Part shown: positions 1 through 38,039 of the stretch, one piece after another
Layout: every line of letters begins with the position of its first letter
How positions within the stretch are numbered: position 1 is the first letter of the stretch
Position numbers and translations under genes: made by a program
IMG/VR virus record: IMGVR_UViG_3300036760_000327
Span: 1-64,000 of that record
From: a virus
DNA length: 64,000 nt
Reading direction: 5' to 3' (one strand)
Notes under the pieces: generated by a model
What the model was told of the DNA's origin: nothing
The model's input: only the letters and a program-made list of their open reading frames with translations
Database searches by the model: none

Positions 1-52
1 TTCACTTTCACAATGTCGATTAACCTATCGAAATCATTCATGATTTTTCTAT

Positions 53-81
53 TTGACTTTTCGTTTGTGAAAAGTTAGAAT
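53..81 (+). promoter_or_regulatory. sigma70-type early promoter
   Basis: TTGACT (53-58), exactly 17 nt, TAGAAT (76-81), upstream of the whole + strand early region. Confidence 0.75.
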
Positions 82-87
82 TGTCTC

Positions 88-1735
88 AAATTTGGAAGAA
101 AAGTTTGAGAATTTGAGAAGAAAGAAGGTGAAAAGAGAAGTAAAATAATCTAACATTCGTTCCACAATGGGATGACCGCGTATCCCATAGAGTAAACTAT
201 CCAATGCTCTGAATGTAGCCTATACACTACAACGCGTGGAAAGTCAAATCTCCTGTAATGGGATAGCATTTAGACAGGTATGACTAATACAGTCTGTCCG
301 AACAGACTGGCGGAGACGCACCAGGCCGTATATGCCCAATATACGAAAATAACTCGGTAATGTATAGACTATGCCTTGCTATAGGCCCATGTTAGAACTT
401 ATCTGGCCTCTCCATCTTACAAAATGAGAGGTCAACATGGATAAGAACATGGTAACTTTAAAAATCGGAAAGACGATTATTCAATGCCGTCCAGAAGACG
501 TGGGAAATATAATGTCTTCAGTTTCTACGGCACCTGTAACCGCGGAAAAGAAATATGAAAAATCTACGGTTATCCATAAGGCAATCCGTAATCTAGAGGC
601 GAACACTCCAGAGGAATTAGTGATTGGTGCTCTAGCCAATAGATCGGGAATCCATACCGTCTTTTCAGGGTTAAATGAAGAATTGAGAAACCGTTTCGGA
701 GCAGATCCCATTGATGTAACTGAAAAGATGATGAATGCCGGTCTTATTAAGGGGCGTCCGGCGAAAAAGGGATTTTGGATCACTAAATAACTTTTCGCAT
801 AAAGCTATCAGTCAATAGCACAATGCGAAAATGGAGAGGTCAAATTGGTTCTAACATGGTTTTTCAGATATAAGAAGTTATAGGTGTTCTTGTATATACT
901 TGTAATAAGGGGTTATAGTTTAAACCTTTGCTATTTCTTATAGAAATGGATAAAACTAAATATATACAAGAGCTTACTAAAATTTCTTATCCGTCTGCCT
1001 CCAGAGTAGAAATAAGTAAGGGCAGAGCAAGAGTGGAAATCTCTTGACTATACTCGTTTGGAACCATTAAGCGAGCTCTTATATAAGTCTCGTTGAACAA
1101 CGGGTTGAGTATAGGTTTCATTTCTGGCTTATTTTGAAAAGGAACGGACACTGATTAAGAAATGGATGGCCTATAATGGAATATATCCTATTCCTAACTT
1201 ATAAACTATATAATGCACCTAATATTATATAGTTAAGTAAGTAACGGCCCAGTTGCGAGAATGTAGACGTTGCTACTTACTGGGTGATGACTGGATAAAT
1301 GAATATTATGACGCATGTCATCATTTACGCCAGTATAAAAGCGCAGACGGGAAAAACTAACCCCGATTGAGACTAAGGGGCAACGAGAGAATGTCGGCCC
1401 GTCGTATGTCATACGGACAGAGCTCTTTCGAGATGAGCACGTATGTCTTTATCCATTATAAGAATGAGGTCAAATAACATGACAAAATGGATATATCTTC
1501 TAAAGGTATTTGTTCAGCCAGCCTATGAAGATATTATAATTGGCAAGAACACGAGGCAGAGAGGATACTGGAGCTCTGCTGAAAAGAGAATAACTGGCCG
1601 AGCAGACAACTCGGAAGAGCAAGCCAGTAGTTGAAGCTGGCATACTATACAATAAATAGGGCGGCCACGAGCTGCTTAAACAGATGACGGGGTATGTTCT
1701 TTATGCGGACATACCCCGTTATTCTTATATCTACC
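88..1735 (+). ncRNA. candidate large structured early RNA (leader plus intergenic domain) with embedded ORF 437-790
   Basis: Near-continuous stems: 160-165/236-241 closing three hairpins, 290-309, 387-415/831-859, 792-831, 888-898/961-971, 1204-1214/1224-1234, 1684-1699/1707-1722, 866-876/1722-1732. Many non-WC pairs are G.U on the + strand. Confidence 0.55.
437..790 (+). CDS. first early protein, small basic protein (possible winged-helix nucleic-acid binder)
   Basis: 117 aa, SD GAGAGG 426-431. The C-terminal GIHTVFSGLNE...GLIKGRPAKKG segment resembles, from memory, an uncharacterised bacterial family. Confidence 0.7.
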   Translation: MDKNMVTLKIGKTIIQCRPEDVGNIMSSVSTAPVTAEKKYEKSTVIHKAIRNLEANTPEELVIGALANRSGIHTVFSGLNEELRNRFGADPIDVTEKMMNAGLIKGRPAKKGFWITK

Positions 1736-1876
1736 ACAATTACAATTCCAGCAGAGTAGACGAAATGGATAAGTTCCGAGCAGATGGAAAAAGAGATCGC
1801 GCAACCACAGAACTCTTTCTAACTCAAGCTGAAAAAGCTCTAGCAAATGGGGAACGTGCAATTATGGAATTCGTAA

Positions 1877-3259
1877 TTGACGAGAGGTAAAATTATGTCA
1901 CGCACAATCGCTGATTTACTCAAGAATGAAATAGGAAAAAGACCAATATGGGACTATAGAATATGGGCACCTCTAAGTCTCGACGATGATGCAGAAGTTA
2001 AAATTATTATAGATTTTGGTAAAACAACAATGGAAACGACAGAATGTTATTTTTTAAAAATTGCTAAACCAAAAAAGAGGTGATCGGAATGAGGCCCTAT
2101 CATATCGCGTGTAACAGTACAAATCTAAGCACGGTTAAAATTAACAAAGGACATAGGACTATTATATTTGATAAATGTGAATACTGCAATAGAATTATTG
2201 AATCCCATGAAATAAATAGTTCAAGAATTTTATTTTATAAAGCTATATCAAATATAAAATCTCGTCCTCAATCTGGGGACATGGCCAAAATGATTATTAG
2301 ATCCTATAAAAATTAAAAATTGGAGAGTGATGTGGAAAATATGTTGAAAGAATATGAAGCCGAGGCAACGGATCTTAAGGAAGCTCTTAAAAGATTTACG
2401 GGAATGACTATAAAAGAAGCCCAAAATTATGGATGGGGCGAAAAAGAGGATAGATTACAGGGTAGATTATGGATATTAGGGTACAAGATAACTGATCTTA
2501 AGAATAAAATATCTAAAAATGAAAAACCGATGGATTAAATCTTGGGCTCATAAATGGACTGAGTGTAGATTCTGCCATAGAAATGTATATAAGGGAGAGT
2601 TAGTGTGGAAACTTACAGGAACTATATCCCCGTACTATATATGTAACGTATGCAAAAGAAAGGAGAAATTGAAGAATGAAAAATTTCATTATAACAAGCT
2701 GGACAAATTTCCATGAAAATGAAAGATGGGAAGTTGAGGCCGAGTCTTTAGAAGAAGCGCAAAAGATTGCTTTAGAGGAGTTCAATATAACAGTTGAAGA
2801 AGTTCCAGAAAAAGAAATAGTATGAGAGAAAATAGAAAGCGTGAACTATCCAGAGTCATGGAAAAAGGCGCACAAATTGATAATGAACTCGTATCCAAAT
2901 GCGCTTATTATCCCTTGTTCCGTTTCTGTAAATTTGTTGATAAGAAAACTGGCGATCTAATTGTCGGCCAGCAATTAGTATGCAAAAATTGTTCTATAAT
3001 AGAGCCTAATTTAAGGTGTAAGCACAGTAGTATCTTGTCATGGTAAAGGATAAATATAATGAATATTAATAAACTTCAACTTATTAATTGTATATGCCAT
3101 AATGGTTATAAAGAAACGATCAATTCAATTATACATATTCCTCCTAAAATTGTTAACGAATACGCTGGCGCTTTTATAGTGAGCAATGGTTCTATCCAGT
3201 TAGCCAGAATAATGCAATTTATTAGAAAAGAAGACGGGACAATTATTAAAATAAAATGA
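1877..3259 (+). CDS. run of small early hypothetical ORFs (1877-2083, 2080-2316, 2320-2538, 2519-2716, 2822-3046, 3059-3259)
   Basis: Tightly packed or overlapping co-directional ORFs, several with CxxC motifs; exact starts uncertain. Confidence 0.55.
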
Positions 3260-3549
3260 ACCATTTAAATGCGAAAGAGAAAATCGGGGATGTCTATGTT
3301 ATTCATTTTGATAAAAAATACTACCATTGTCTTCATTATATAGGATTCACACAAATTGGTATAAATAATAGATTGTATTTACATAAAACAAATCGTGGAG
3401 CAGCTTTATTAAAGGCTGTTAATAGAGCAGGCATTGACTACAAGATAACTTTATGTTTTAAAAATGTTCCTCAATCATTTGAATTTAAATTGAAACGTCA
3501 AAAGAAAGCAAGTAATATATGTCCGTTATGTAAACAAAGGAGGCTATAA
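3256..3549 (+). CDS. GIY-YIG nuclease-family protein
   Basis: DVYVIHF...HYIGFT...RLYLH...E.KLK pattern and C-terminal CPLC. Confidence 0.7.
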   Translation: MNHLNAKEKIGDVYVIHFDKKYYHCLHYIGFTQIGINNRLYLHKTNRGAALLKAVNRAGIDYKITLCFKNVPQSFEFKLKRQKKASNICPLCKQRRL

Positions 3550-3744
3550 AAATGGAAAAATTTACTGTCTTTTATGATCAAATAGATAGAATAAATTATC
3601 AGATTTTAGCAAAAGATGAAACGGAGGCAATTTTAAAAGCGAATGAAATATATAAAAGAAAGATAGATATTCCTGACGGTTATGTTCAAGCAGGATGGAT
3701 TTCAGAAAGTGATGGCGAAAATAAATAGAAAGAAAGAGGATAAA

Positions 3745-4729
3745 ATGAAAATAACAGAAGTTAATTTTGGTCCTATGTTTAATGCTAGCACTGATAAACA
3801 TCCGGTAATAGTCCCTACTGGAAAAGTTACAATATCAGATTGCTATGATGAGAAGGAGCCTCGTCCATATGGAAGATTTCTGGTTAATGTGCACGTTAAT
3901 GTTGGAAGGGATTATAGAGTTATTCAAATTACTGAAAAGAATTATGCTAATCCTATAATAGTAGGTGGGATTGATTGTACGCCATATTTAAATGGAGCAT
4001 AAGCAAGGAAGCTATACCTTATTTAATTAATACTATGTATAAGGAGAAGAAAATTAAACCTTGGAGGGAAGGAGAAAAAAATGAAGTTTAAATTAAAAAC
4101 TTCTGGCTATTTTTACAAAGATGAGGACAAGGAAAAACTATTGAAACTGGGGTTTAAATTTGATCCTTATATATTTAAGGAATATAGATGGACTAAAAAA
4201 GATAATGTACCAGAAATAGAAATAAATTCCCTTAATGAGTTGGTTAAATTTATGGAAGAATGGGGAGATTTAATTTTATCCCCCAACGCAATAGAAATTT
4301 ATGATAACTATAGAGAATAAAACGATAATAAAAGGAGCTAATATGAAAAATAATAGAAAATATAGTGATGATATTGGATGGAATATTATAGGTTGGATAG
4401 CTGAACGAGTATTTCCTTATCTGCTTCTTGCTGTGATAGGAATATTCTCGTTATTAATAATAGGAATGGCAATAAAATTAATATTAATTCTAATACATTA
4501 AATAATATAAAAGAAAGGAGGTTAGATGAATACTGAAAAAATTATAGAAATTGCAACTCAATGGACTGAAAATCCGCCCTCCCAATTAAGAAATGCTACT
4601 GACTTAAGGATTTGTAAGAATGCAATTTTGTTGCTGTCGTATCGTGGTCTTTCTTCAGGGCTAACCCAGAAGGAGCGAGTTAACCTAAATATTTTGGTTG
4701 GTTTAAGAAAGGAGGAATTACGAAAATAG
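3745..4729 (+). CDS. small hypothetical ORFs (3745-4002, 4081-4320, 4343-4501 membrane, 4526-4729)
   Basis: Each has an AGGA/GGAG SD; starts adjusted to the SD. Confidence 0.55.
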
Positions 4730-5550
4730 ATATTATAAATTCCGTTGAAGAACTAGAAGTTTTTAAAGATTATCAAAACAGAAAGATCTCATTCAAAGGA
4801 TCAGTCAAGTTTAATTGCCCAGTTTATCTTAAAGATGACTGGTCAATAAAGGCTGAGGGATTCATTACTACCACAAAATTCATTGATATAGGAGGATTCA
4901 TTGATATAGAAAGATTCATCAGGGCCGGAGGATCCATTAGAGCGAGAAAGCACATTAAGGCTGGAGAATACATTGATATAGAAGGATTCATTAAAACCGA
5001 AAAATACATCAAGACCGAAGGATTCATTAGGGCCGGAGAGAGCATTGAGGCTGGAGGATCAGTTAGGGCGAGAAAACACATTAAGACTGGAGGGCACATT
5101 AAGGCTGGAGAGGGCATTGAAACCGAAGAGGGCATTGAGGCTAGAAGGTATATTGAAGCTGGAGAGCACATTAAGGCTGAGGAGAGCATTGAGGCTGGAG
5201 GATTCATTAAGGCTGGAGAAGGCATTTACGCAGGGAAGTTCATTAAAGCTGGAGAATACATTTTTTCCTTTAATTTTGATATTTCAGCTAAATGGATTTC
5301 TACCAAAACTCTCCCGTTCTATCGAAAATTTTGGTCTGAAATGATTCCTCTAAAAAAGTGGAGATCAATGATTCTCGATAATGACATTTGTTGGAATACT
5401 TTCAGAAATCTTCCTTCGTTTAAAGAAAAACAGGAAATTGTAAATTGGAAGGGATGGCACTGGATTTTAAAAGGTCAACTCGAATGTTTTTTTAGATTAA
5501 AGGATCAATTTAAACCAAAAAGCAACGATGAGACAAAAATTATAAGTTAG
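4720..5550 (+). CDS. hexapeptide-repeat beta-helix protein (bactofilin-like repeats), non-ATG start
   Basis: Frame open 4684-5550, in frame with ATG 5341. Repeats IKAGEH/IEAGGF/IKTEGF. SD AAGGAGG 4709-4715 is followed by ACG 4720 (or ATA 4726). Confidence 0.7.
   Translation, partial: TKIDIINSVEELEVFKDYQNRKISFKGSVKFNCPVYLKDDWSIKAEGFITTTKFIDIGGFIDIERFIRAGGSIRARKHIKAGEYIDIEGFIKTEKYIKTEGFIRAGESIEAGGSVRARKHIKTGGHIKAGEGIETEEGIEARRYIEAGEHIKAEESIEAGGFIKAGEGIYAGKFIKAGEYIFSFNFDISAKWISTKTLPFYRKFWSEMIPLKKWRSMILDNDICWNTFRNLPSFKEKQEIVNWKGWHWILKGQLECFFRLKDQFKPKSNDETKIIS
4845..5262 (+). repeat. 18-bp coding tandem repeats
   Basis: Recurring (C)ATT-AAG/GAG-GCT-GGA-GAG/GGA units. Confidence 0.8.
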
Positions 5551-5909
5551 CGATGAAAGACGGGAAGCAAAAGGAACCCAGTTACTGGTATTAAATTTTA
5601 AAGGAGAAAGCAAAATGATAAAAAGAGTCCGCCAATGGAAACAGGACATCAACGGAAAAACTCAAGAGGATAAAAGTGTCATTGTACTTAGTTTAGGACG
5701 AGAGCGGAGTTTGGTAATTCGTAAGAAACCTTTCAAGATAAGTTACCATACTTTCGCGGGATGTGCTTAATCTTTATAAAAAAGGAAGTAATAAAAATGA
5801 ATAAAAGAATAACGAAAAAGATTTTGAAATTACAGGATAAATTAAATTATTCAAAGACTCAAATTGAAAGAGCAAAGAAAATTTTGAAAAAGGAGAAAGA
5901 TTAAATAGA

Positions 5910-6149
5910 ATGAAATTTGCTGGTAGAGATAAAAGAAACGAAGAAATAAAATATAATGATTTTAAAACTATAATCCATTTCTATTATCCTGAAACTGATA
6001 CTAGATGGATTTCTTTCTCGTCTGAATTGCCTACGTCTATACTAGATCAGATAGTAGATCATAATGAGTATGGGAATGAATTTATTAAAATAATAATATC
6101 TATAAAAAGGAAAGAAAAGGATGGAGAAAAATATGAAAAGAGTATTTGA
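5910..6149 (+). CDS. hypothetical protein
   Basis: 79-aa ORF in the early gene run. Confidence 0.55.
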   Translation: MKFAGRDKRNEEIKYNDFKTIIHFYYPETDTRWISFSSELPTSILDQIVDHNEYGNEFIKIIISIKRKEKDGEKYEKSI

Positions 6150-20171: not shown

Positions 20172-20244
20172 GCTTGCGTAGCTTATGAAGGTAAAGCCCT
20201 GTTTTGTAAACAGGAAGAAGGGGGTTCAATTCCTCCCGCAAGCT
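20172..20244 (+). tRNA. tRNA-Thr(UGU), CCA not encoded
   Basis: Acceptor GCTTGCG/CGCAAGC, D arm GCTT/AAGC, anticodon arm CCTGT-TTTGTAA-ACAGG, T arm GGGGG-TTCAATT-CCTCC. Confidence 0.9.
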
Positions 20245-20296
20245 CTAAGATGTGGGCTCTACCCTGACTTGTTCTACCAAATTTTTTCAAGGAGGA

Positions 20297-20509
20297 AAAA
20301 TGGGAGACCGTTATTTAATAACAGTAAAGTGTTCTGAATGCGGTTTTATAGAAGGAGAAGTTTATTATGCTCCAACTTGCGGATTTACAGACTGGAATTG
20401 CCCAAAGTGCAATCACAAAGTTGATTTGGAAAATTATACGGGAATTAGTTATAAGGACGCTTCTAACAAAGAGTTAATAGAAAAAATTGTAAAAGCAGTT
20501 GGAAAGTAG
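20297..20509 (+). CDS. zinc-ribbon protein
   Basis: CSEC and CPKC motifs; start near MGDRY after AGGAGG, approximate. Confidence 0.6.
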   Translation, partial: KMGDRYLITVKCSECGFIEGEVYYAPTCGFTDWNCPKCNHKVDLENYTGISYKDASNKELIEKIVKAVGK

Positions 20510-20593
20510 ATTGATCTTATAAATTATTGATCAGAATTTGATTTCCATAACGAGTTCTGATATAAGAAAACAAATCGTGGAAGGAATTTTAAT

Positions 20594-21013
20594 ATGACCA
20601 ACGAGGAGCTAAAATTATTAAAAGAATTGCGGTGTGGTCAGCATAAATGTATCCATTGTGGTAAAGATTTAGTCGATGGTTATGATAATGAATCTTGTAA
20701 ATCATGTAGGCGTCTATTACATAAAGCGATGAATGATGGGGGTTGGCGGGCTAAACTTACTGTTAAAATTTTAGACCATTATGGCTGGAAATGTTCCTGC
20801 TGCGGTTGTGATATTCCTGAATTTTTAACCGTTGATCATTGTTTTGGAGCCGGTAACGAGCATAGAAGAGACGCTAGAAAAATGGGCAGTAATGATTGGT
20901 ACAAAACAATTATTGCTGAAAACTATCCTGATAAATATCAAATACTTTGTTATAATTGTAACTTAGGCCGCCAGCGTAATAATGGAATATGCCCGCATAA
21001 ATTGGAGCAATAA
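20594..21013 (+). CDS. HNH-like Zn-binding nuclease
   Basis: CSCCG...LTVDH...QILCYNCN...GICPH. Confidence 0.75.
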   Translation: MTNEELKLLKELRCGQHKCIHCGKDLVDGYDNESCKSCRRLLHKAMNDGGWRAKLTVKILDHYGWKCSCCGCDIPEFLTVDHCFGAGNEHRRDARKMGSNDWYKTIIAENYPDKYQILCYNCNLGRQRNNGICPHKLEQ

Positions 21014-21017
21014 CTAT

Positions 21018-21335
21018 ATGGCAGATAAATATGCTGAATAACGTCGTTCTATTATTAATAGAAATAAATGGTTAGCTTTTTTAAAGGAGAATGATAAGAC
21101 TTGCTGTTCTAGATGTGGATATGATACTTATTTTGGCGCTATTGATTTTCATCATTTAAATCCCGCGCAAAAAGAATATGATATTGGGACTATTTTGACA
21201 CAGAAAATAACAGATAAAAGAATACAGGAAATTCAAAAATGTATAACTTTATGTTCTAATTGTCATAGAGAACTTCATGCAGGATTATGGACTATTTTAA
21301 ATGGTGTTTGTCCGCACAAAGAAGAGGAAATATAA
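21018..21335 (+). pseudogene. HNH endonuclease with in-frame TAA at codon 8
   Basis: MADKYAE*RRSIINRNKWLAFLKENDKTCCSRCGYD...IDFHH...LCSNCHRELHAGLW; paralog of 38636-39118. Confidence 0.75.
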
Positions 21336-22204
21336 TGTCTTATTACCATATCCCAAATTTATACCAGGATCAATCTATTCTTCTTTTTAAAGAGTGTTAC
21401 GCCCTAGAAAAGATTCATGGAACTAGCGCTCATATTTTATATAAGGATGATGATATAGTATTTTTTTCTGGAGGTGTTAAATACGAGGAATTTGTAAAAT
21501 TATTCAGTTACGAAAATTTGTTATCCATATTTAGAGAACACTTTACACCAGAACAAAAGGTATGCGTATATGGAGAAGCTTATGGTGGTAAATGTCAAGG
21601 AATGTCGACTACTTATGGCCCAAATTTAAAATTTGTAGCATTTGAAGTTCTTGTAGATGGTATATGGTTAAAGGTTCCAGATGCTGAAACAGTTGTTAAA
21701 TTTCTGGGATTAGAATTTGTATTTTATCGTAAAATTCCTACTGATATAGAATCTATTAATAGAGAAAGAGATGCTCCTTCTATTCAAGCAGTTCGTAATG
21801 GGATCCCAGATTATCAGCCGATGTTTAGAGAAGGAATTGTTCTTCGTCCACTAGAAGAAATGATAAAAAATAATGGAGGACGTGTTATTGCTAAACATAA
21901 AAGGGATGAATTTAGGGAGACTAAAACCCCGCGAAATGTAATAGATAAATCTGAAAAACGGGAAAAATTAATTGAAGTAAATAAAATTATTGATGAATGG
22001 TTAACCGAAAGGCGATTGGATCACGTATTGGATAATGCTAATTTGGAATTAAAAGTGGAAAATATTGGGAAAATAATTCCTTTAATGATGGAGGATATAT
22101 ACAGAGAGGGGAAGGGCGAGATTGAAGAATCTCAAGAATTAAAGAAAGCCATCGGGAGAGAAACAGCACTTATGTTTAAAAGGAGATTAAATGTCATAAA
22201 ATAG
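21335..22204 (+). CDS. RNA ligase (Rnl2-like)
   Basis: EKIHGT (motif I), YGEAYG, FVAFEV, REGIVLRP and AKHK; start placed at the TAATG overlap. Confidence 0.88.
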   Translation: MSYYHIPNLYQDQSILLFKECYALEKIHGTSAHILYKDDDIVFFSGGVKYEEFVKLFSYENLLSIFREHFTPEQKVCVYGEAYGGKCQGMSTTYGPNLKFVAFEVLVDGIWLKVPDAETVVKFLGLEFVFYRKIPTDIESINRERDAPSIQAVRNGIPDYQPMFREGIVLRPLEEMIKNNGGRVIAKHKRDEFRETKTPRNVIDKSEKREKLIEVNKIIDEWLTERRLDHVLDNANLELKVENIGKIIPLMMEDIYREGKGEIEESQELKKAIGRETALMFKRRLNVIK

Positions 22205-35585: not shown

Positions 35586-35914
35586 ATTTTTTTAATGAAC
35601 TTAAAAATTATTTTGGCAGAAAAATTTCTTTAGAATCTTATGGAGACAATTTTATAGCCCCTCCATGTCCGCTACAACTTCAAATAACTAAAACATGTGT
35701 TTGTATGACATGTGATTTAGTAAACAATTGTCCTATGGAAATATTGTGCAGACAACAAGGATGTGAAATGGTATTTATTAGAGGTTGTACTAGTTATACA
35801 AACAGGAAGGAAAAAAATTGTGAAGAAAAACGGGAAGTCTTTAGAGAAGGTTCCCACTTCGATGGAGGAGTCTTCTGTTTTAGAGGAAAACCCAAAACAA
35901 ATTCAACAATTTAA
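35582..35914 (+). CDS. Cys-rich hypothetical protein
   Basis: ORF overlapping the recA start. Confidence 0.45.
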   Translation: MNFFNELKNYFGRKISLESYGDNFIAPPCPLQLQITKTCVCMTCDLVNNCPMEILCRQQGCEMVFIRGCTSYTNRKEKNCEEKREVFREGSHFDGGVFCFRGKPKTNSTI

Positions 35915-38039
35915 AAAGTTACTTGAAGCCGAGGATAATATATTTGGCACAACCCTATATTATTTACATTCAGGAAATCTAGCTTTGGATTATATTATTA
36001 GCGGGAAAGCTGATGGGACAGGCGGGTGGCCAGGTGGCAAAGTTGTAGAAATGTTTGGGGCACCATCTTGTTTGGTAGCTGGAACCAAAATTTGTTTGGC
36101 GAATGGCAGTATGGTTCCAATTGAAAGTCTAGGGCATAATCATTTAGACAATATTAATATTGATATATTATTAGATAAATATGGTAATAAAGCTAATGCT
36201 AAAATATTTCATAAGTTTGATAATCAAAATATAGTAGAAATATTAATGCAAGGGGGAACAATAATTAAAGGTACATATAATCATCCTTTATTAAAAGTTA
36301 TGGATGATTATAGTTTTGTATGGACTACACTAGATAAATTAAAAATCGGAGATAAATTAGCAACGATTACTTATATTCCGTGCTCAATCGTAGAAGAAAT
36401 AAATACCGATTTTCATTATTTACCTATAAGTAAATATTCTCCTAAATATAAATATAATATTCCTGAAAAAGTAACCGAGGAATTGGCCGCAATATTTGGG
36501 TATATTATAGGTGATGGTTGGATACAAAAAGATAAAAAATATGGTTATGGATTTAGAAGAGTGGCATTTCTTGTAAATGAATCAGAACAAGATATTTTAC
36601 CTATATTACTTAAATATGTAGAAAATACATTTGGTTGTCCTCCTCGTATCTCTGTTAGAGAACCAGATACTACTCCACGATTAATGAAAAGCGGGAAATA
36701 TATTGTTGGAAAACAAACACTAACAGACGTAACTTATAGTAGTGTGCCAATGGCAACTATTTTATCTTTTCTTATTAATAAAGAAGTTCCAGATTTAATA
36801 TTTCGATCTGGCAATAAAGTGGTGGCATCATTTATACGGTGGCTATTTGAAGCTGATGGACATGTAGATGATCCTACAAATTATACATCCCAAAGTACTC
36901 CGGGTATAGGATTAACTTCAAATTATCCGCAATTATTACAAGATATAAAACTTTTATTATTAAGATTTAAAATTAGGAGTCGAATATATAATAATAAATT
37001 ATATATTTCAGATGGTCAATCTATAATATATTATGCACAACATATTGGATTTGTTTCTAATAAAAAGAAAAATAGACTAATTCACTTAATGTCAGTAAGA
37101 CAAGATAGAAGGAAACAAACATATTCTGATTACGAAATTATTAAAGATATTAAGTATTTAAACGACAAAGAATCAGTTTATGATATTGAAGTTCTATATG
37201 AACATAGTTTTATAGCTAATGGTGTTATAAGTCACAATACTGGGAAGACGCTTCTTATTGATAAAGCTGGCGCGGAAATGCAAAAAATAGGGGGTGTATT
37301 TGTATTAGCTGATGTTGAAAATCGGTGGAACAAAGCATTTGCTAAAATGCATGGCGTGAATGTTGACAATGTTATTTGTTTTTCCCCGTCTACAGTTGAA
37401 GAATTTACTATTAAGATAGATAGATTGTTAGAAGCTGCTGAAGATACTAAATTTTTAATTGCATTAGATAGTCTTGCACGTTTATCAACTATTAAAGAAG
37501 TTGATGATGTAGGCGATGGTGATATTAAAGCAGACCAAGGAAGAAAGGCTCAAAAAATCCATGCTGCTATGAGAGTATTACCAGCCAAAATTAGCAAAAC
37601 AAATTCCATATTTATGGTAGCAAATCATATAATTGATAACCCGAATCAAATGTATTCTTCTATTAAACATACCCCAGGTGGACGTGGGATACCATTTCAG
37701 GCTACAGTACGGGTTGATTTATCTTCACCAACTACTATAGTACTGAAAGGAAGAAATCGTCCCATCGGGGTAGAATTGCATGCTAAATGTGTAAAGAATT
37801 CTGAAACAGTCCCCTTTGGAGAATGTGATATTAAAATGTTATGGAGCATAGGTATAAGTAAATATGCAGGTCTGGCTGATATTTTAGTGGATTGTGGTAT
37901 TATTAACAAAAATGGAGCGTGGTTAGAATTTCAAGGGCAAAAATTTTATGAAAGAGACATATCTAAAATTATAGAATCCCATCCTGAAATATTAACTGAT
38001 AAGCAATTAACAAATCCATATTTTATGCGGGAAGAATGA
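35763..38039 (+). CDS. recA: RecA/UvsX-like recombinase containing an intein (true start probably 35820-35861)
   Basis: SGNLALD, GG.P.GKVVE.FG.PS//TGKT, LDSL and TPGG..IPF.A. Confidence 0.9.
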   Translation: MKWYLLEVVLVIQTGRKKIVKKNGKSLEKVPTSMEESSVLEENPKQIQQFKKLLEAEDNIFGTTLYYLHSGNLALDYIISGKADGTGGWPGGKVVEMFGAPSCLVAGTKICLANGSMVPIESLGHNHLDNINIDILLDKYGNKANAKIFHKFDNQNIVEILMQGGTIIKGTYNHPLLKVMDDYSFVWTTLDKLKIGDKLATITYIPCSIVEEINTDFHYLPISKYSPKYKYNIPEKVTEELAAIFGYIIGDGWIQKDKKYGYGFRRVAFLVNESEQDILPILLKYVENTFGCPPRISVREPDTTPRLMKSGKYIVGKQTLTDVTYSSVPMATILSFLINKEVPDLIFRSGNKVVASFIRWLFEADGHVDDPTNYTSQSTPGIGLTSNYPQLLQDIKLLLLRFKIRSRIYNNKLYISDGQSIIYYAQHIGFVSNKKKNRLIHLMSVRQDRRKQTYSDYEIIKDIKYLNDKESVYDIEVLYEHSFIANGVISHNTGKTLLIDKAGAEMQKIGGVFVLADVENRWNKAFAKMHGVNVDNVICFSPSTVEEFTIKIDRLLEAAEDTKFLIALDSLARLSTIKEVDDVGDGDIKADQGRKAQKIHAAMRVLPAKISKTNSIFMVANHIIDNPNQMYSSIKHTPGGRGIPFQATVRVDLSSPTTIVLKGRNRPIGVELHAKCVKNSETVPFGECDIKMLWSIGISKYAGLADILVDCGIINKNGAWLEFQGQKFYERDISKIIESHPEILTDKQLTNPYFMREE
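36069..37238 (+). mobile_element. intein with LAGLIDADG homing endonuclease (390 aa)
   Basis: Starts CLVAGT, block B GTYNHP, FGYIIGDG and IRWLFEADG, ends VYDIEV...ANGVISHN followed by Thr. Confidence 0.93.

What the first reader, a model, noticed from the sequence alone, without database searches (positions are those of the whole stretch)
1..1735. ~1.7 kb almost continuously base-paired early RNA region
Seen: downstream of a canonical sigma70 promoter (53-81), nearly every segment lies in a stem. Examples are a four-way junction (160-241), CAGTCTGT-CCGA-ACAGACTG (290-309), GCG-GAGA-CGC, 792-831, 11-bp stems (888-898/961-971 and 1204-1234), a 16-bp stem (1684-1722), and a long-range 11-bp pair closing 866-1732. 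Many of the non-WC pairs I checked are G.U when read on the + strand, which favours a folded single strand of that polarity. About 650 nt (791-1442) lacks any ORF of 60 aa or more, unusual for such a densely coded phage. Inference: a large phage ncRNA or structured early transcript, acting as a scaffold, decoy, antitermination RNA or RNase III-processed multi-RNA precursor. I do not recognise it as a known family.
Basis: partly seen in the sequence, partly recalled or inferred. Interest (0 to 1): 0.85.

Follow-up and report, generated by a model that had tools for sequence, protein, structure and literature searches.

The report
New large pseudoknotted phage early RNA
The first early transcript of this 106-kb metagenomic phage is about 80% non-coding and contains a conserved, pseudoknotted RNA domain of roughly 0.65-0.9 kb that matches no known RNA family, with the only gene held in a loop closed by a 30-bp duplex.

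Summary
Windows within 1-1350 rank 1, 4, 5 and 7 of 708 genome-wide for excess folding. The segments 82-440, 785-1485 and 1480-1900 fold 4-7 SD better than dinucleotide shuffles.

I found three homologous loci: L003 (IMG/VR, 110 kb), L004 (ENA contig) and L019 (IMG/VR fragment). Over 15 curated helices, 97.7% of cells are canonical pairs, against 36-46% when partners are slid. Compensatory double changes occur in 66 of 112 columns.

- **Not coding.** Substitutions in 791-1634 have no codon periodicity. The core diverges less than the adjacent gene (26-33% versus 39%).
- **Long-range duplex.** A 32-bp duplex (387-418/828-859) encloses gene 437-790. L003 keeps it with a different sequence.
- **Crossing helices.** Two arrangements covary: d/q, and the h2 loop pairing with 1381-1385.
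- **Unit boundaries.** It runs from a sigma70 promoter (12/12 in L003) to a terminator-like hairpin.
- **No known family.** Rfam gives no match.

Best reading: a new family of large structured phage RNA made immediately after infection, probably processed at the duplex. Its function is unknown and I obtained no expression data. The scan had noted parts of this stretch before, on this same genome only.

The parts
53..81 (+). sigma70-type early promoter (TTGACT-17-TAGAAT)
   Evidence: 10/12. L003 has a 12/12 consensus promoter at the matching place, 5462-5490. Activity is inferred.
88..386 (+). Structured 5' leader, including the four-way junction 160-241 and the hairpin 290-309
   Evidence: z -4.1 and junction z -3.1. 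The L003 leader is also structured, z -3.7, but sequence homology is weak. No covariation test was possible.
387..418 (+). 5' arm of the long-range duplex that encloses the ORF
   Evidence: 32 nt, pairing with 828-859 (27 WC + 2 G.U). L003 5939-5968/6411-6440 forms 30 bp with a different sequence.
404..434 (+). Local hairpin that sequesters the Shine-Dalgarno of gene 437-790. It uses the same anti-SD as the long-range duplex.
   Evidence: -13 kcal/mol, z -3.2 in the window. It is absent in L003 (-2.9 kcal/mol, z 0.1), so it is lineage-specific.
437..790 (+). Gene for a basic 117-aa protein of unknown family
   Evidence: Seven close homologs at 63-73% identity. Third-codon-position substitution bias of 18/50/21. 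No Pfam or PHROG match. AF2 pLDDT is 68 with only weak winged-helix-like fold hits. The C-terminal ~50 aa domain is widespread, with 126 representatives.
792..831 (+). Post-stop hairpin with a conserved GUCAA-type loop
   Evidence: z -5.1. The inner stem covaries: GCUAU/AUAGC, GGUAU/AUACC, CAGCAU/AUGCUG.
828..859 (+). 3' arm of the ORF-enclosing duplex, carrying a pseudo-SD (GGAGAGG)
866..990 (+). Long irregular hairpin c with a variable tip
   Evidence: Present at the same place in the window, L004 and L003. The L003 sequence is different and tip size varies.
1010..1134 (+). Subdomain I. Helix r is 1010-1016/1128-1134, d is 1017-1023/1075-1081, hairpin e is 1028-1046 and q is 1048-1055/1107-1114. 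Helices d and q cross, giving a pseudoknot. Invariant GGGCAGAG and AGGUU motifs are present.
   Evidence: Helices r, e and q are fully paired in all four homologs with many compensatory changes. Helix d is paired in three and only partly in L019.
1189..1242 (+). Conserved AUUCCUAACUUGUAA motif and the long hairpin g (1197-1242)
   Evidence: The g stems covary. The motif is also complementary to 1457-1466 in three homologs, with covariation (PK3a/b). This may be an alternative or a tertiary pairing.
1248..1284 (+). Helix h (1248-1253/1279-1284) enclosing hairpin h2 (1263-1276), whose loop is 1267-1272
   Evidence: Helix h reads CCCAGU/ACUGGG, CGUAGA/UCUACG and CGCGGA/UCCGCG. The h2 stems covary.
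1290..1334 (+). Variable hairpin i
   Evidence: It has a different sequence in L004 and is absent in L003.
1346..1403 (+). Subdomain II. Helix j is 1346-1351/1398-1403, hairpin k is 1361-1380 and mini-hairpin l is 1384-1396. Segment 1381-1385 pairs with the h2 loop 1268-1272 (pseudoknot PK1).
   Evidence: Helices j and k covary in four homologs. In PK1, CGUUG/CAACG is invariant in three, and L019 changed both sides to AUAGUG/CACUAU.
1404..1493 (+). Hairpin m, helix o/n, and helix p (1450-1457/1486-1493) with inner hairpin p2 and the conserved AUAAGAAU
   Evidence: Helix p has five compensatory changes in L003. Hairpin p2 changes from GUCA/UGAC to CCUC/GAGG.
1494..1683 (+). Lineage-variable structured 3' region. 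The apparent ORF 1479-1634 is not coding.
   Evidence: Hairpins are shared with compensatory changes between the window and L004 only. There is no codon periodicity (20/16/16) and the ORF is absent in L003.
1684..1722 (+). Terminator-like 16-17-bp hairpin that closes the unit
   Evidence: L004 has a canonical terminator at 1092-1120. L003 and L019 have long hairpins followed by U-runs, seen by eye but not called by the scan.

Best explanation
Positions 53 to about 1725 form one immediate-early transcription unit read by the host RNA polymerase on the + strand. It has four parts:
- a structured leader;
- one small gene (437-790) held in a loop closed by a 30-32-bp long-range duplex;
- a 3' domain of about 870 nt, whose core (about 1010-1493) is a new, conserved, pseudoknotted RNA fold;
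- a closing terminator-like hairpin.

I infer that the duplex acts as an RNase III-type processing stalk, as in rRNA precursors and T7 or SP82 early mRNAs. Cleavage there would separate the leader, the mRNA and the 3' domain. In the window phage, duplex formation also frees the gene's ribosome-binding site. The released 3' domain would then act as a stable large non-coding RNA early in infection, possibly as an RNP with the basic 117-aa protein encoded inside it.

Shown: excess structure, conservation, covariation, lack of coding, and the promoter and terminator motifs. Inferred: transcription, processing, stability, trans action and any protein partner.
For: - **Excess folding.**. The 3' domains of L003 and L004 also give z -6.0 and -6.6.
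- **Covariation.** The curated structure on A7 is 90% paired, against 35-46% when slid. It has 13 pairs with changes on both sides, and 0 of 500 shuffles reach the observed values. A table of 15 helices over four homologs is 97.7% canonical, with 66 of 112 compensatory columns against 7-13 in slid controls.
- **Crossing helices.** Helices d and q cross and both covary. PK1 changed on both sides in L019.
- **ORF-enclosing duplex.** It is kept in L003 with a different sequence.
- **Non-coding but constrained.** There is no codon periodicity, and divergence is 26-33% against 39% in the gene. Stop codons of all three kinds occur in all frames.
- **Composition.** GC is 0.40-0.44 here against about 0.27-0.33 in neighbouring DNA.
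- **Framing.** Promoters are found, and terminators.
- **Synteny.** The downstream gene MxxYHxAC... is shared by the window, L003 and L019.
- **Precedent.** Abundant early-promoter lncRNAs of 0.6-1.2 kb are reported in phage K (PMC9241854). Large ornate phage-associated RNAs are also known (PMC12286853).
Against: - There are no expression data.
- Only four homologs were available, one of them partial and one lacking the 5' half. Helices were curated by eye on the same sequences used to count covariation, so the counts are optimistic.
- Strand asymmetry is modest.
- RNase III cleavage, RNA stability and protein binding are untested.
- The SD-sequestering switch is not conserved in L003.
- The k-loop and l-hairpin motifs, conserved in three homologs, are missing in L019.
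- Distant homologs of the protein occur in other phages without this RNA. The protein therefore does not need the RNA.
Confidence: 0.5

Rival explanations
1. The structure is a purely cis-acting regulatory untranslated region. The leader, the duplex and the 3' domain would control translation, mRNA stability or read-through of the 1684-1722 terminator into the downstream early genes, in the manner of a riboswitch or a put/EAR-like antitermination element. No separate RNA product would exist.
For: - The domain lies directly between the first early gene and a terminator-like hairpin.
- No strong promoter is seen for the genes that follow.
- In the window, the anti-SD can pair either with the true SD or with the 3' arm.
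- Alternative pairings (PK3 versus g/f) are each compatible with the covariation, as expected of a switch.
Against: - Known antitermination RNAs and riboswitches are 70-250 nt, not 650 nt or more with several pseudoknots.
- The SD switch is not conserved in L003.
- The part next to the terminator (1494-1683) is the least conserved, whereas expression platforms normally overlap the conserved sensor.
Confidence: 0.3
2. The region is a DNA-level element, such as a replication origin, packaging site or recombination site. On this reading the inverted repeats act in DNA rather than RNA.
For: - The region lies at the boundary between divergently oriented gene blocks, next to AT-rich DNA with palindromic repeats.
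- The minus strand also folds well.
Against: - Crossing helices and loop-to-strand pairings with compensatory changes make sense for a folded single strand, not for duplex DNA.
- Conserved G.U pairs outnumber A.C 16 to 4.
- The element is framed by a promoter and a terminator on one strand in several phages.
- No iterons lie inside 860-1500.
Confidence: 0.07
3. The region is a remnant or an unusual form of a self-splicing intron or other mobile element, with the ORF in a peripheral loop.
For: - An ORF inside a long closing helix recalls intron-encoded ORFs.
- The genome is rich in mobile elements: an intein with LAGLIDADG in RecA and an HNH-like relic at 1700-1773.
- An earlier first-reader note proposes group I introns in the capsid gene.
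- Rfam also failed on that capsid region, so a negative Rfam result is weak evidence here.
Against: - No interrupted host gene exists. The upstream gene ends at a stop conserved in eight homologs, and the flanks do not join into an ORF.
- There is no Rfam group I or II signal in four loci.
- No P3/P7-type core or domain V was recognisable.
- The element sits at the same locus in diverged phages, with no other copies in the genome.
Confidence: 0.05

Closest known systems
GOLLD and ROOL large ornate RNAs (Rfam RF01998, RF03087; PMC12286853)
   Same: Both are non-coding RNAs of 0.6-0.8 kb associated with phages or prophages. They are rich in pseudoknots and conserved loops and have no known function. 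They were found in the same way, as GC-rich, ORF-free, covarying intergenic regions.
   Different: No covariance-model match was found even at E up to 10. The element is not next to tRNA genes: the nearest tRNA is at 20172. It is co-transcribed with, and wrapped around, a protein gene. The family is very small and is known only from metagenomic phages.
Phage K (Kayvirus) lnc001 and lnc002 (PMC9241854)
   Same: These are RNAs of 0.6-1.15 kb in intergenic regions of a large virulent Firmicutes phage. They are transcribed from early promoters, are abundant, and have no known function.
   Different: There is no detectable sequence similarity to any GenBank phage. For phage K, expression is shown but structure and covariation are not. 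Here the situation is the reverse.
RNase III processing stalks (rRNA precursors; T7 and SP82 early mRNAs). This comparison rests on my own knowledge.
   Same: A near-perfect duplex of 30 bp or more, formed by sequences flanking a functional unit in a primary transcript made early by host polymerase.
   Different: Here the stalk encloses a protein ORF rather than an rRNA. T7 and SP82 sites are local hairpins between genes. Cleavage has not been shown.
Dual-function RNAs such as S. aureus RNAIII. This comparison rests on my own knowledge.
   Same: One highly structured transcript carries both a small ORF and extensive functional non-coding domains.
   Different: RNAIII acts by antisense pairing through C-rich loops. 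No targets or such loops were identified here.

Membership tests
GOLLD / ROOL (Rfam) | Match to the family covariance model | tested here: not met
   No hit at E up to 10 with permissive filters in the window, L003 or L004, and none at gathering score over 64 kb.
GOLLD / ROOL (Rfam) | Frequent adjacency to tRNA genes in phage or prophage DNA | tested here: not met
   The only tRNA in the window lies at 20172-20245.
Group I intron | Interrupts a gene, so that the flanking exons join into a functional product | tested here: not met
   The upstream gene is complete, with a stop conserved in eight homologs. The downstream sequence is a terminator and an unrelated small ORF.
Group I intron | Conserved P3-P8 core with a P7 guanosine-binding site; Rfam RF00028 match | tested here: inconclusive
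   There was no Rfam match and I recognised no P3/P7 topology. Rfam also found nothing in the genome's proposed capsid introns, so its sensitivity here is doubtful.
Group II intron | Domain V and a six-domain layout with the ORF in domain IV close to the 3' end | tested here: not met
   There was no Rfam match. About 870 nt follow the ORF loop, against about 100 nt expected.
RNase III processing stalk | Near-perfect RNA duplex of about 20 bp or more flanking the excised unit | tested here: met
   32 bp in the window and 30 bp in L003.
RNase III processing stalk | Cleavage by RNase III | not testable with these tools
   This needs an in vitro cleavage assay or end-mapping in infected cells.
Intrinsic terminator | GC-rich hairpin followed by a U-run | tested here: met
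   The scan called it in the window (weak U-run) and in L004. L003 and L019 show it only by eye.
Protein-coding region (standard or recoded) | Open frame and third-position substitution bias | tested here: not met
RNase P RNA | P4 core (CR-I/CR-V) and Rfam model match | tested here: not met
   There was no Rfam hit. The shared GGGCAG string is only a resemblance recalled from memory.

The most novel reading that the evidence does not exclude
This is a previously undescribed class of large (about 0.65 kb or more), multiply pseudoknotted RNA. Phages would deploy it in the first minutes of infection as a ribozyme, a self-assembling RNA or the scaffold of an RNP. Its partner protein would be encoded inside a processing stalk of the same transcript.
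Probability: 0.3. Interest if true: 0.85.

Novelty: new variant of a known kind. Interest (0 to 1): 0.68.

Why it matters
Bacterial and phage RNAs above about 500 nt with complex conserved tertiary folds are rare. The known ones are ribozymes, RNP scaffolds or, as shown recently for GOLLD and ROOL, self-assembling cages. A new family of this size would add a further class to study. This one has covarying pseudoknots, an immediate-early position and a gene embedded in a conserved 30-bp duplex. It would also give a concrete system for asking what large RNAs do during host takeover. The family is small, comes only from metagenomes, and has no known host and no expression data. These facts limit what can be tested now.

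Tried and rejected
- **Tool closure.** The contigs behind homologs P0002-P0008 could not be fetched, which limited the homolog set.
- **Similarity searches.** GenBank phages gave nothing in near or distant DNA mode.
- **Pattern scans.** Three patterns found only the L003 contig or that contig plus a chance match, L020. A relaxed pattern gave five further chance matches, L022-L026, whose e-stems do not pair.
- **Covariance model.** Model R1 hits only its three training loci. It misses L019, which is real but diverged.
- **Sequencing runs.** No RNA holder was listed; only one DNA run appeared, probably the source sample.
- **Shift-tolerant helix test.** With +-8 slop its null was too permissive to be useful. 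With +-2 slop single helices were mostly not individually significant.
- **Pairings dropped as not conserved or contradicted by covarying helices.**
- **Other rejected ideas.** Self-similarity within the genome showed only the HNH relic. A fold search of the protein gave no significant match. Recoding and a cryptic gene were rejected.
Full report
**Context.** The window is the first 64 kb of a 106,486-bp IMG/VR virus record. Its ends repeat over 127 bp, so position 1 is probably an arbitrary assembly break. Upstream, across the join, lie minus-strand genes ending at 105,911. From 437 onward the genes run on the + strand. The finding therefore sits at the divergent boundary where the + strand early and replication block begins. 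That block includes an SNF2 helicase, primase-helicase, family A DNA polymerase, gp32-like SSB, RecA with an intein, and an RNA ligase. Ribosome-binding sites are strong GGAGG-type and genomic GC is about 30%. The only sequencing run that holds the DNA is a sediment metagenome.

- Against dinucleotide shuffles the + strand folds with z -4.1 for 82-440, -7.0 for 785-1485 and -4.6 for 1480-1900.
- A 150-nt sliding scan averages about -1.9 over 1-1800 and about 0 over 1800-6000.
- In a genome-wide scan of 708 windows of 300 nt, corrected for composition, windows in 1-1350 rank 1, 4, 5 and 7. The only comparable region is 85.3-88.2 kb.
- GC is 0.40-0.44 here, against 0.27-0.33 in neighbouring DNA.
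- 791-1442 has no ORF of 60 aa or more, and all three stop codons occur in every frame, so no simple recoding opens it.

**Homologs.**
- The 117-aa protein from 437-790 has seven close relatives (63-73% identity) on short metagenomic contigs.
- Protein-guided scans recovered L003, a 110-kb IMG/VR phage whose protein is 54% identical. They also recovered L004, an 1,831-nt contig that starts inside the gene.
- A DNA pattern built from a conserved hairpin recovered L019, a contig that starts inside the RNA. L019 carries the same downstream gene (MxxYHxAC...) as the window and L003.
- The other pattern hits were chance matches.
- Nothing turned up in GenBank phages or in 185,579 species genomes.
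- More distant relatives of the protein sit in unrelated phages, for example a 70% GC one. Those loci have no long ORF-free stretch and give no hit to my covariance model.

**Not coding, yet constrained.** Between the window and L004, mismatches in the gene fall 18/50/21 by codon position, which is the coding signature. Across 791-1634 they are flat. Nucleotide divergence is 39% in the gene but only 26-33% in 1000-1478. The apparent 51-63-aa ORF at 1443/1479-1634 shows no periodicity (20/16/16) and does not exist in L003. Its 'start region' is instead the 3' strand of a covarying helix.

**Structure and covariation.**
- The 3' domains of L003 and L004 fold with z -6.0 and -6.6.
- On alignment A7 (1336-1500) a curated structure gives 90.4% paired cells, against 35-46% when the partner is slid. 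It has 13 pairs with changes on both sides, against 1-4 in slid controls, and 0 of 500 shuffles reach the observed values.
- A coordinate-based table of 15 helices over the available homologs gives 344 of 352 canonical cells (97.7%), against 36-46% when slid. It has 66 of 112 columns with compensatory double changes, against 7-13 when slid. G.U outnumbers A.C 16 to 4.
- I chose the helices on the same sequences used for counting, so these figures are optimistic. The slid controls and the individual cases below still make the signal clear.

Individual cases:

| Helix | Window | L004 | L003 | L019 |
|---|---|---|---|---|
| r | AAAUAAG/CUUAUUU | GAAUAGG/CCUAUUC | AUAUAUG/CAUAUAU | UCUUACC/GGUAAGA |
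| e | CAAGAG/CUCUUG | UAUGGG/CCCAUA | UAUAGG/CCUAUA | UACACG/CGUGUA |
| h | CCCAGU/ACUGGG | same as window | CGUAGA/UCUACG | CGCGGA/UCCGCG |
| j | GACGGG/CCCGUC | GCCAGG/CCUGGC | GACAGG/CCUGUC | GGACAG/CUGUCC |
| k | CCCC/GGGG | GCGG/CUGC | UGGG/CCCA | GGUC/GACC |

Helix p changes from UAUCCAUU/AAUGGAUA in the window to UGUAUGCU/AGCAUACC in L003.

**Tertiary features.**
- Helices d (1017-1023/1075-1081) and q (1048-1055/1107-1114) cross each other, and both covary. Both lie inside helix r.
- The h2 loop (ACGUUG, 1267-1272) is complementary to CAACG at 1381-1385. Both are invariant in three homologs. In L019 the loop is AUAGUG and the matching segment is CACUAU, which is three simultaneous compensatory changes.
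- The invariant AUUCCUAACUUGUAA motif is also complementary to UAUAAGAAU at 1457-1466, with covariation. This pairing competes with hairpin f and the base of g, so it is either a tertiary contact or an alternative conformer.
- Such crossing pairings argue for a compact folded single strand rather than duplex DNA.

**The duplex around the gene.** Positions 387-418 pair with 828-859 over 32 positions (27 WC, 2 G.U). L003 has a 30-bp duplex at the same place, 5939-5968/6411-6440, with a largely different sequence. In the window the 5' arm carries an anti-SD. That anti-SD can instead close a local hairpin over the true SD (-13 kcal/mol, z -3.2). L003 has no such hairpin. The duplex is therefore the conserved feature and the translational switch is lineage-specific.

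**Transcription unit.** The window has a 10/12 sigma70 promoter at 53-81 and L003 a 12/12 one. The unit ends in a terminator-like hairpin in the window and L004. L003 and L019 have long hairpins followed by U-runs, seen by eye but not called by the scan. About 79% of the ~1.65-kb unit is non-coding. The leader is structured in both phages but aligns poorly. L003 carries an extra 38-aa ORF in its leader.

**What it is not.**
- Rfam 15 gives no family at gathering score in 64 kb, and nothing credible at E up to 10 in the window, L003 or L004.
- It is therefore not GOLLD, ROOL, RNase P, tmRNA, a group II intron or a known riboswitch.
- A group I intron is unlikely because no gene is interrupted.
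- The region has no paralog in the genome, apart from a 74-nt HNH-like relic at 1700-1773.

**The protein.** It is basic, with no Pfam or PHROG family. The AF2 model has modest confidence and only weak winged-helix-like neighbours. Its C-terminal ~50 residues form a widespread small domain, also found at the C-terminus of a PIF1-like helicase and of a protein kinase. A role in binding nucleic acid is plausible but not shown.

**Most likely mechanism.**
- Host polymerase transcribes the unit right after infection.
- The duplex forms once the 3' arm is made.
- It serves as an RNase III-type stalk, and in the window phage it also unmasks the RBS.
- The 3' domain persists as a large folded RNA that acts in trans or as an RNP.

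I put this at about 0.5. The chief rival, at about 0.3, is that everything acts in cis on translation, stability or terminator read-through. A DNA-level element (0.07) and an intron or mobile remnant (0.05) are minor rivals.

**Novelty.** This is a new RNA family within the known kind of large ornate phage-associated RNAs. It differs from them by its immediate-early position and by the gene embedded in a conserved long-range duplex. Phage K lnc001 and lnc002 are the nearest behavioural precedent. The scan's earlier notes on this stretch concern this same genome only; no look-alike was noted elsewhere.

Noticed in passing
genome 106,119-106,224 (L018:2120-2225), just upstream of window position 1: Two 31-nt copies of a palindromic motif (AATyATGACAnATGTCACC...) lie 75 bp apart, with a third partial copy, in the AT-rich divergent region upstream of the early promoter. 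L003 has similar TGTGACATG / TATGACATGTGTC motifs at 5042-5127. They look like operator sites for a regulator.
   Followed up: partly
window 1700-1773 (- strand) versus 20928-21001: A 74-nt stretch with 65% identity (E 0.011) to the end of an HNH-like gene elsewhere in the genome. It overlaps the 3' arm of the terminator hairpin.
   Followed up: partly
L003:5559-5675: The L003 leader contains a 38-aa ORF with a strong RBS and a CxxC...HxxxC pattern. The window has no counterpart, which explains the longer leader in L003.
   Followed up: no
genome 85,300-88,200 (L017): This is the second most structured region of the genome by composition-corrected MFE. Rfam finds no intron there at E up to 1.
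   Followed up: partly
window 20172-22201 and 35763-38036: A tRNA-Thr(UGU) lies next to an RNA ligase gene (PF09414). The RecA gene is interrupted by an intein with a LAGLIDADG domain.
   Followed up: no
proteins P0099, P0057: The C-terminal ~50-aa domain of the 117-aa protein also occurs at the C-terminus of a PIF1-like helicase and of a Ser/Thr kinase. It appears as a stand-alone ~100-130-aa protein in many phages. It is an unnamed, probably nucleic-acid-binding module.
   Followed up: partly
L021 (G001:C1:14113-14355): The L019 phage fragment encodes a distant paralog of the 117-aa protein (35% identity over residues 22-96, in a 167-aa frame) about 14 kb from its copy of the RNA.
   Followed up: no
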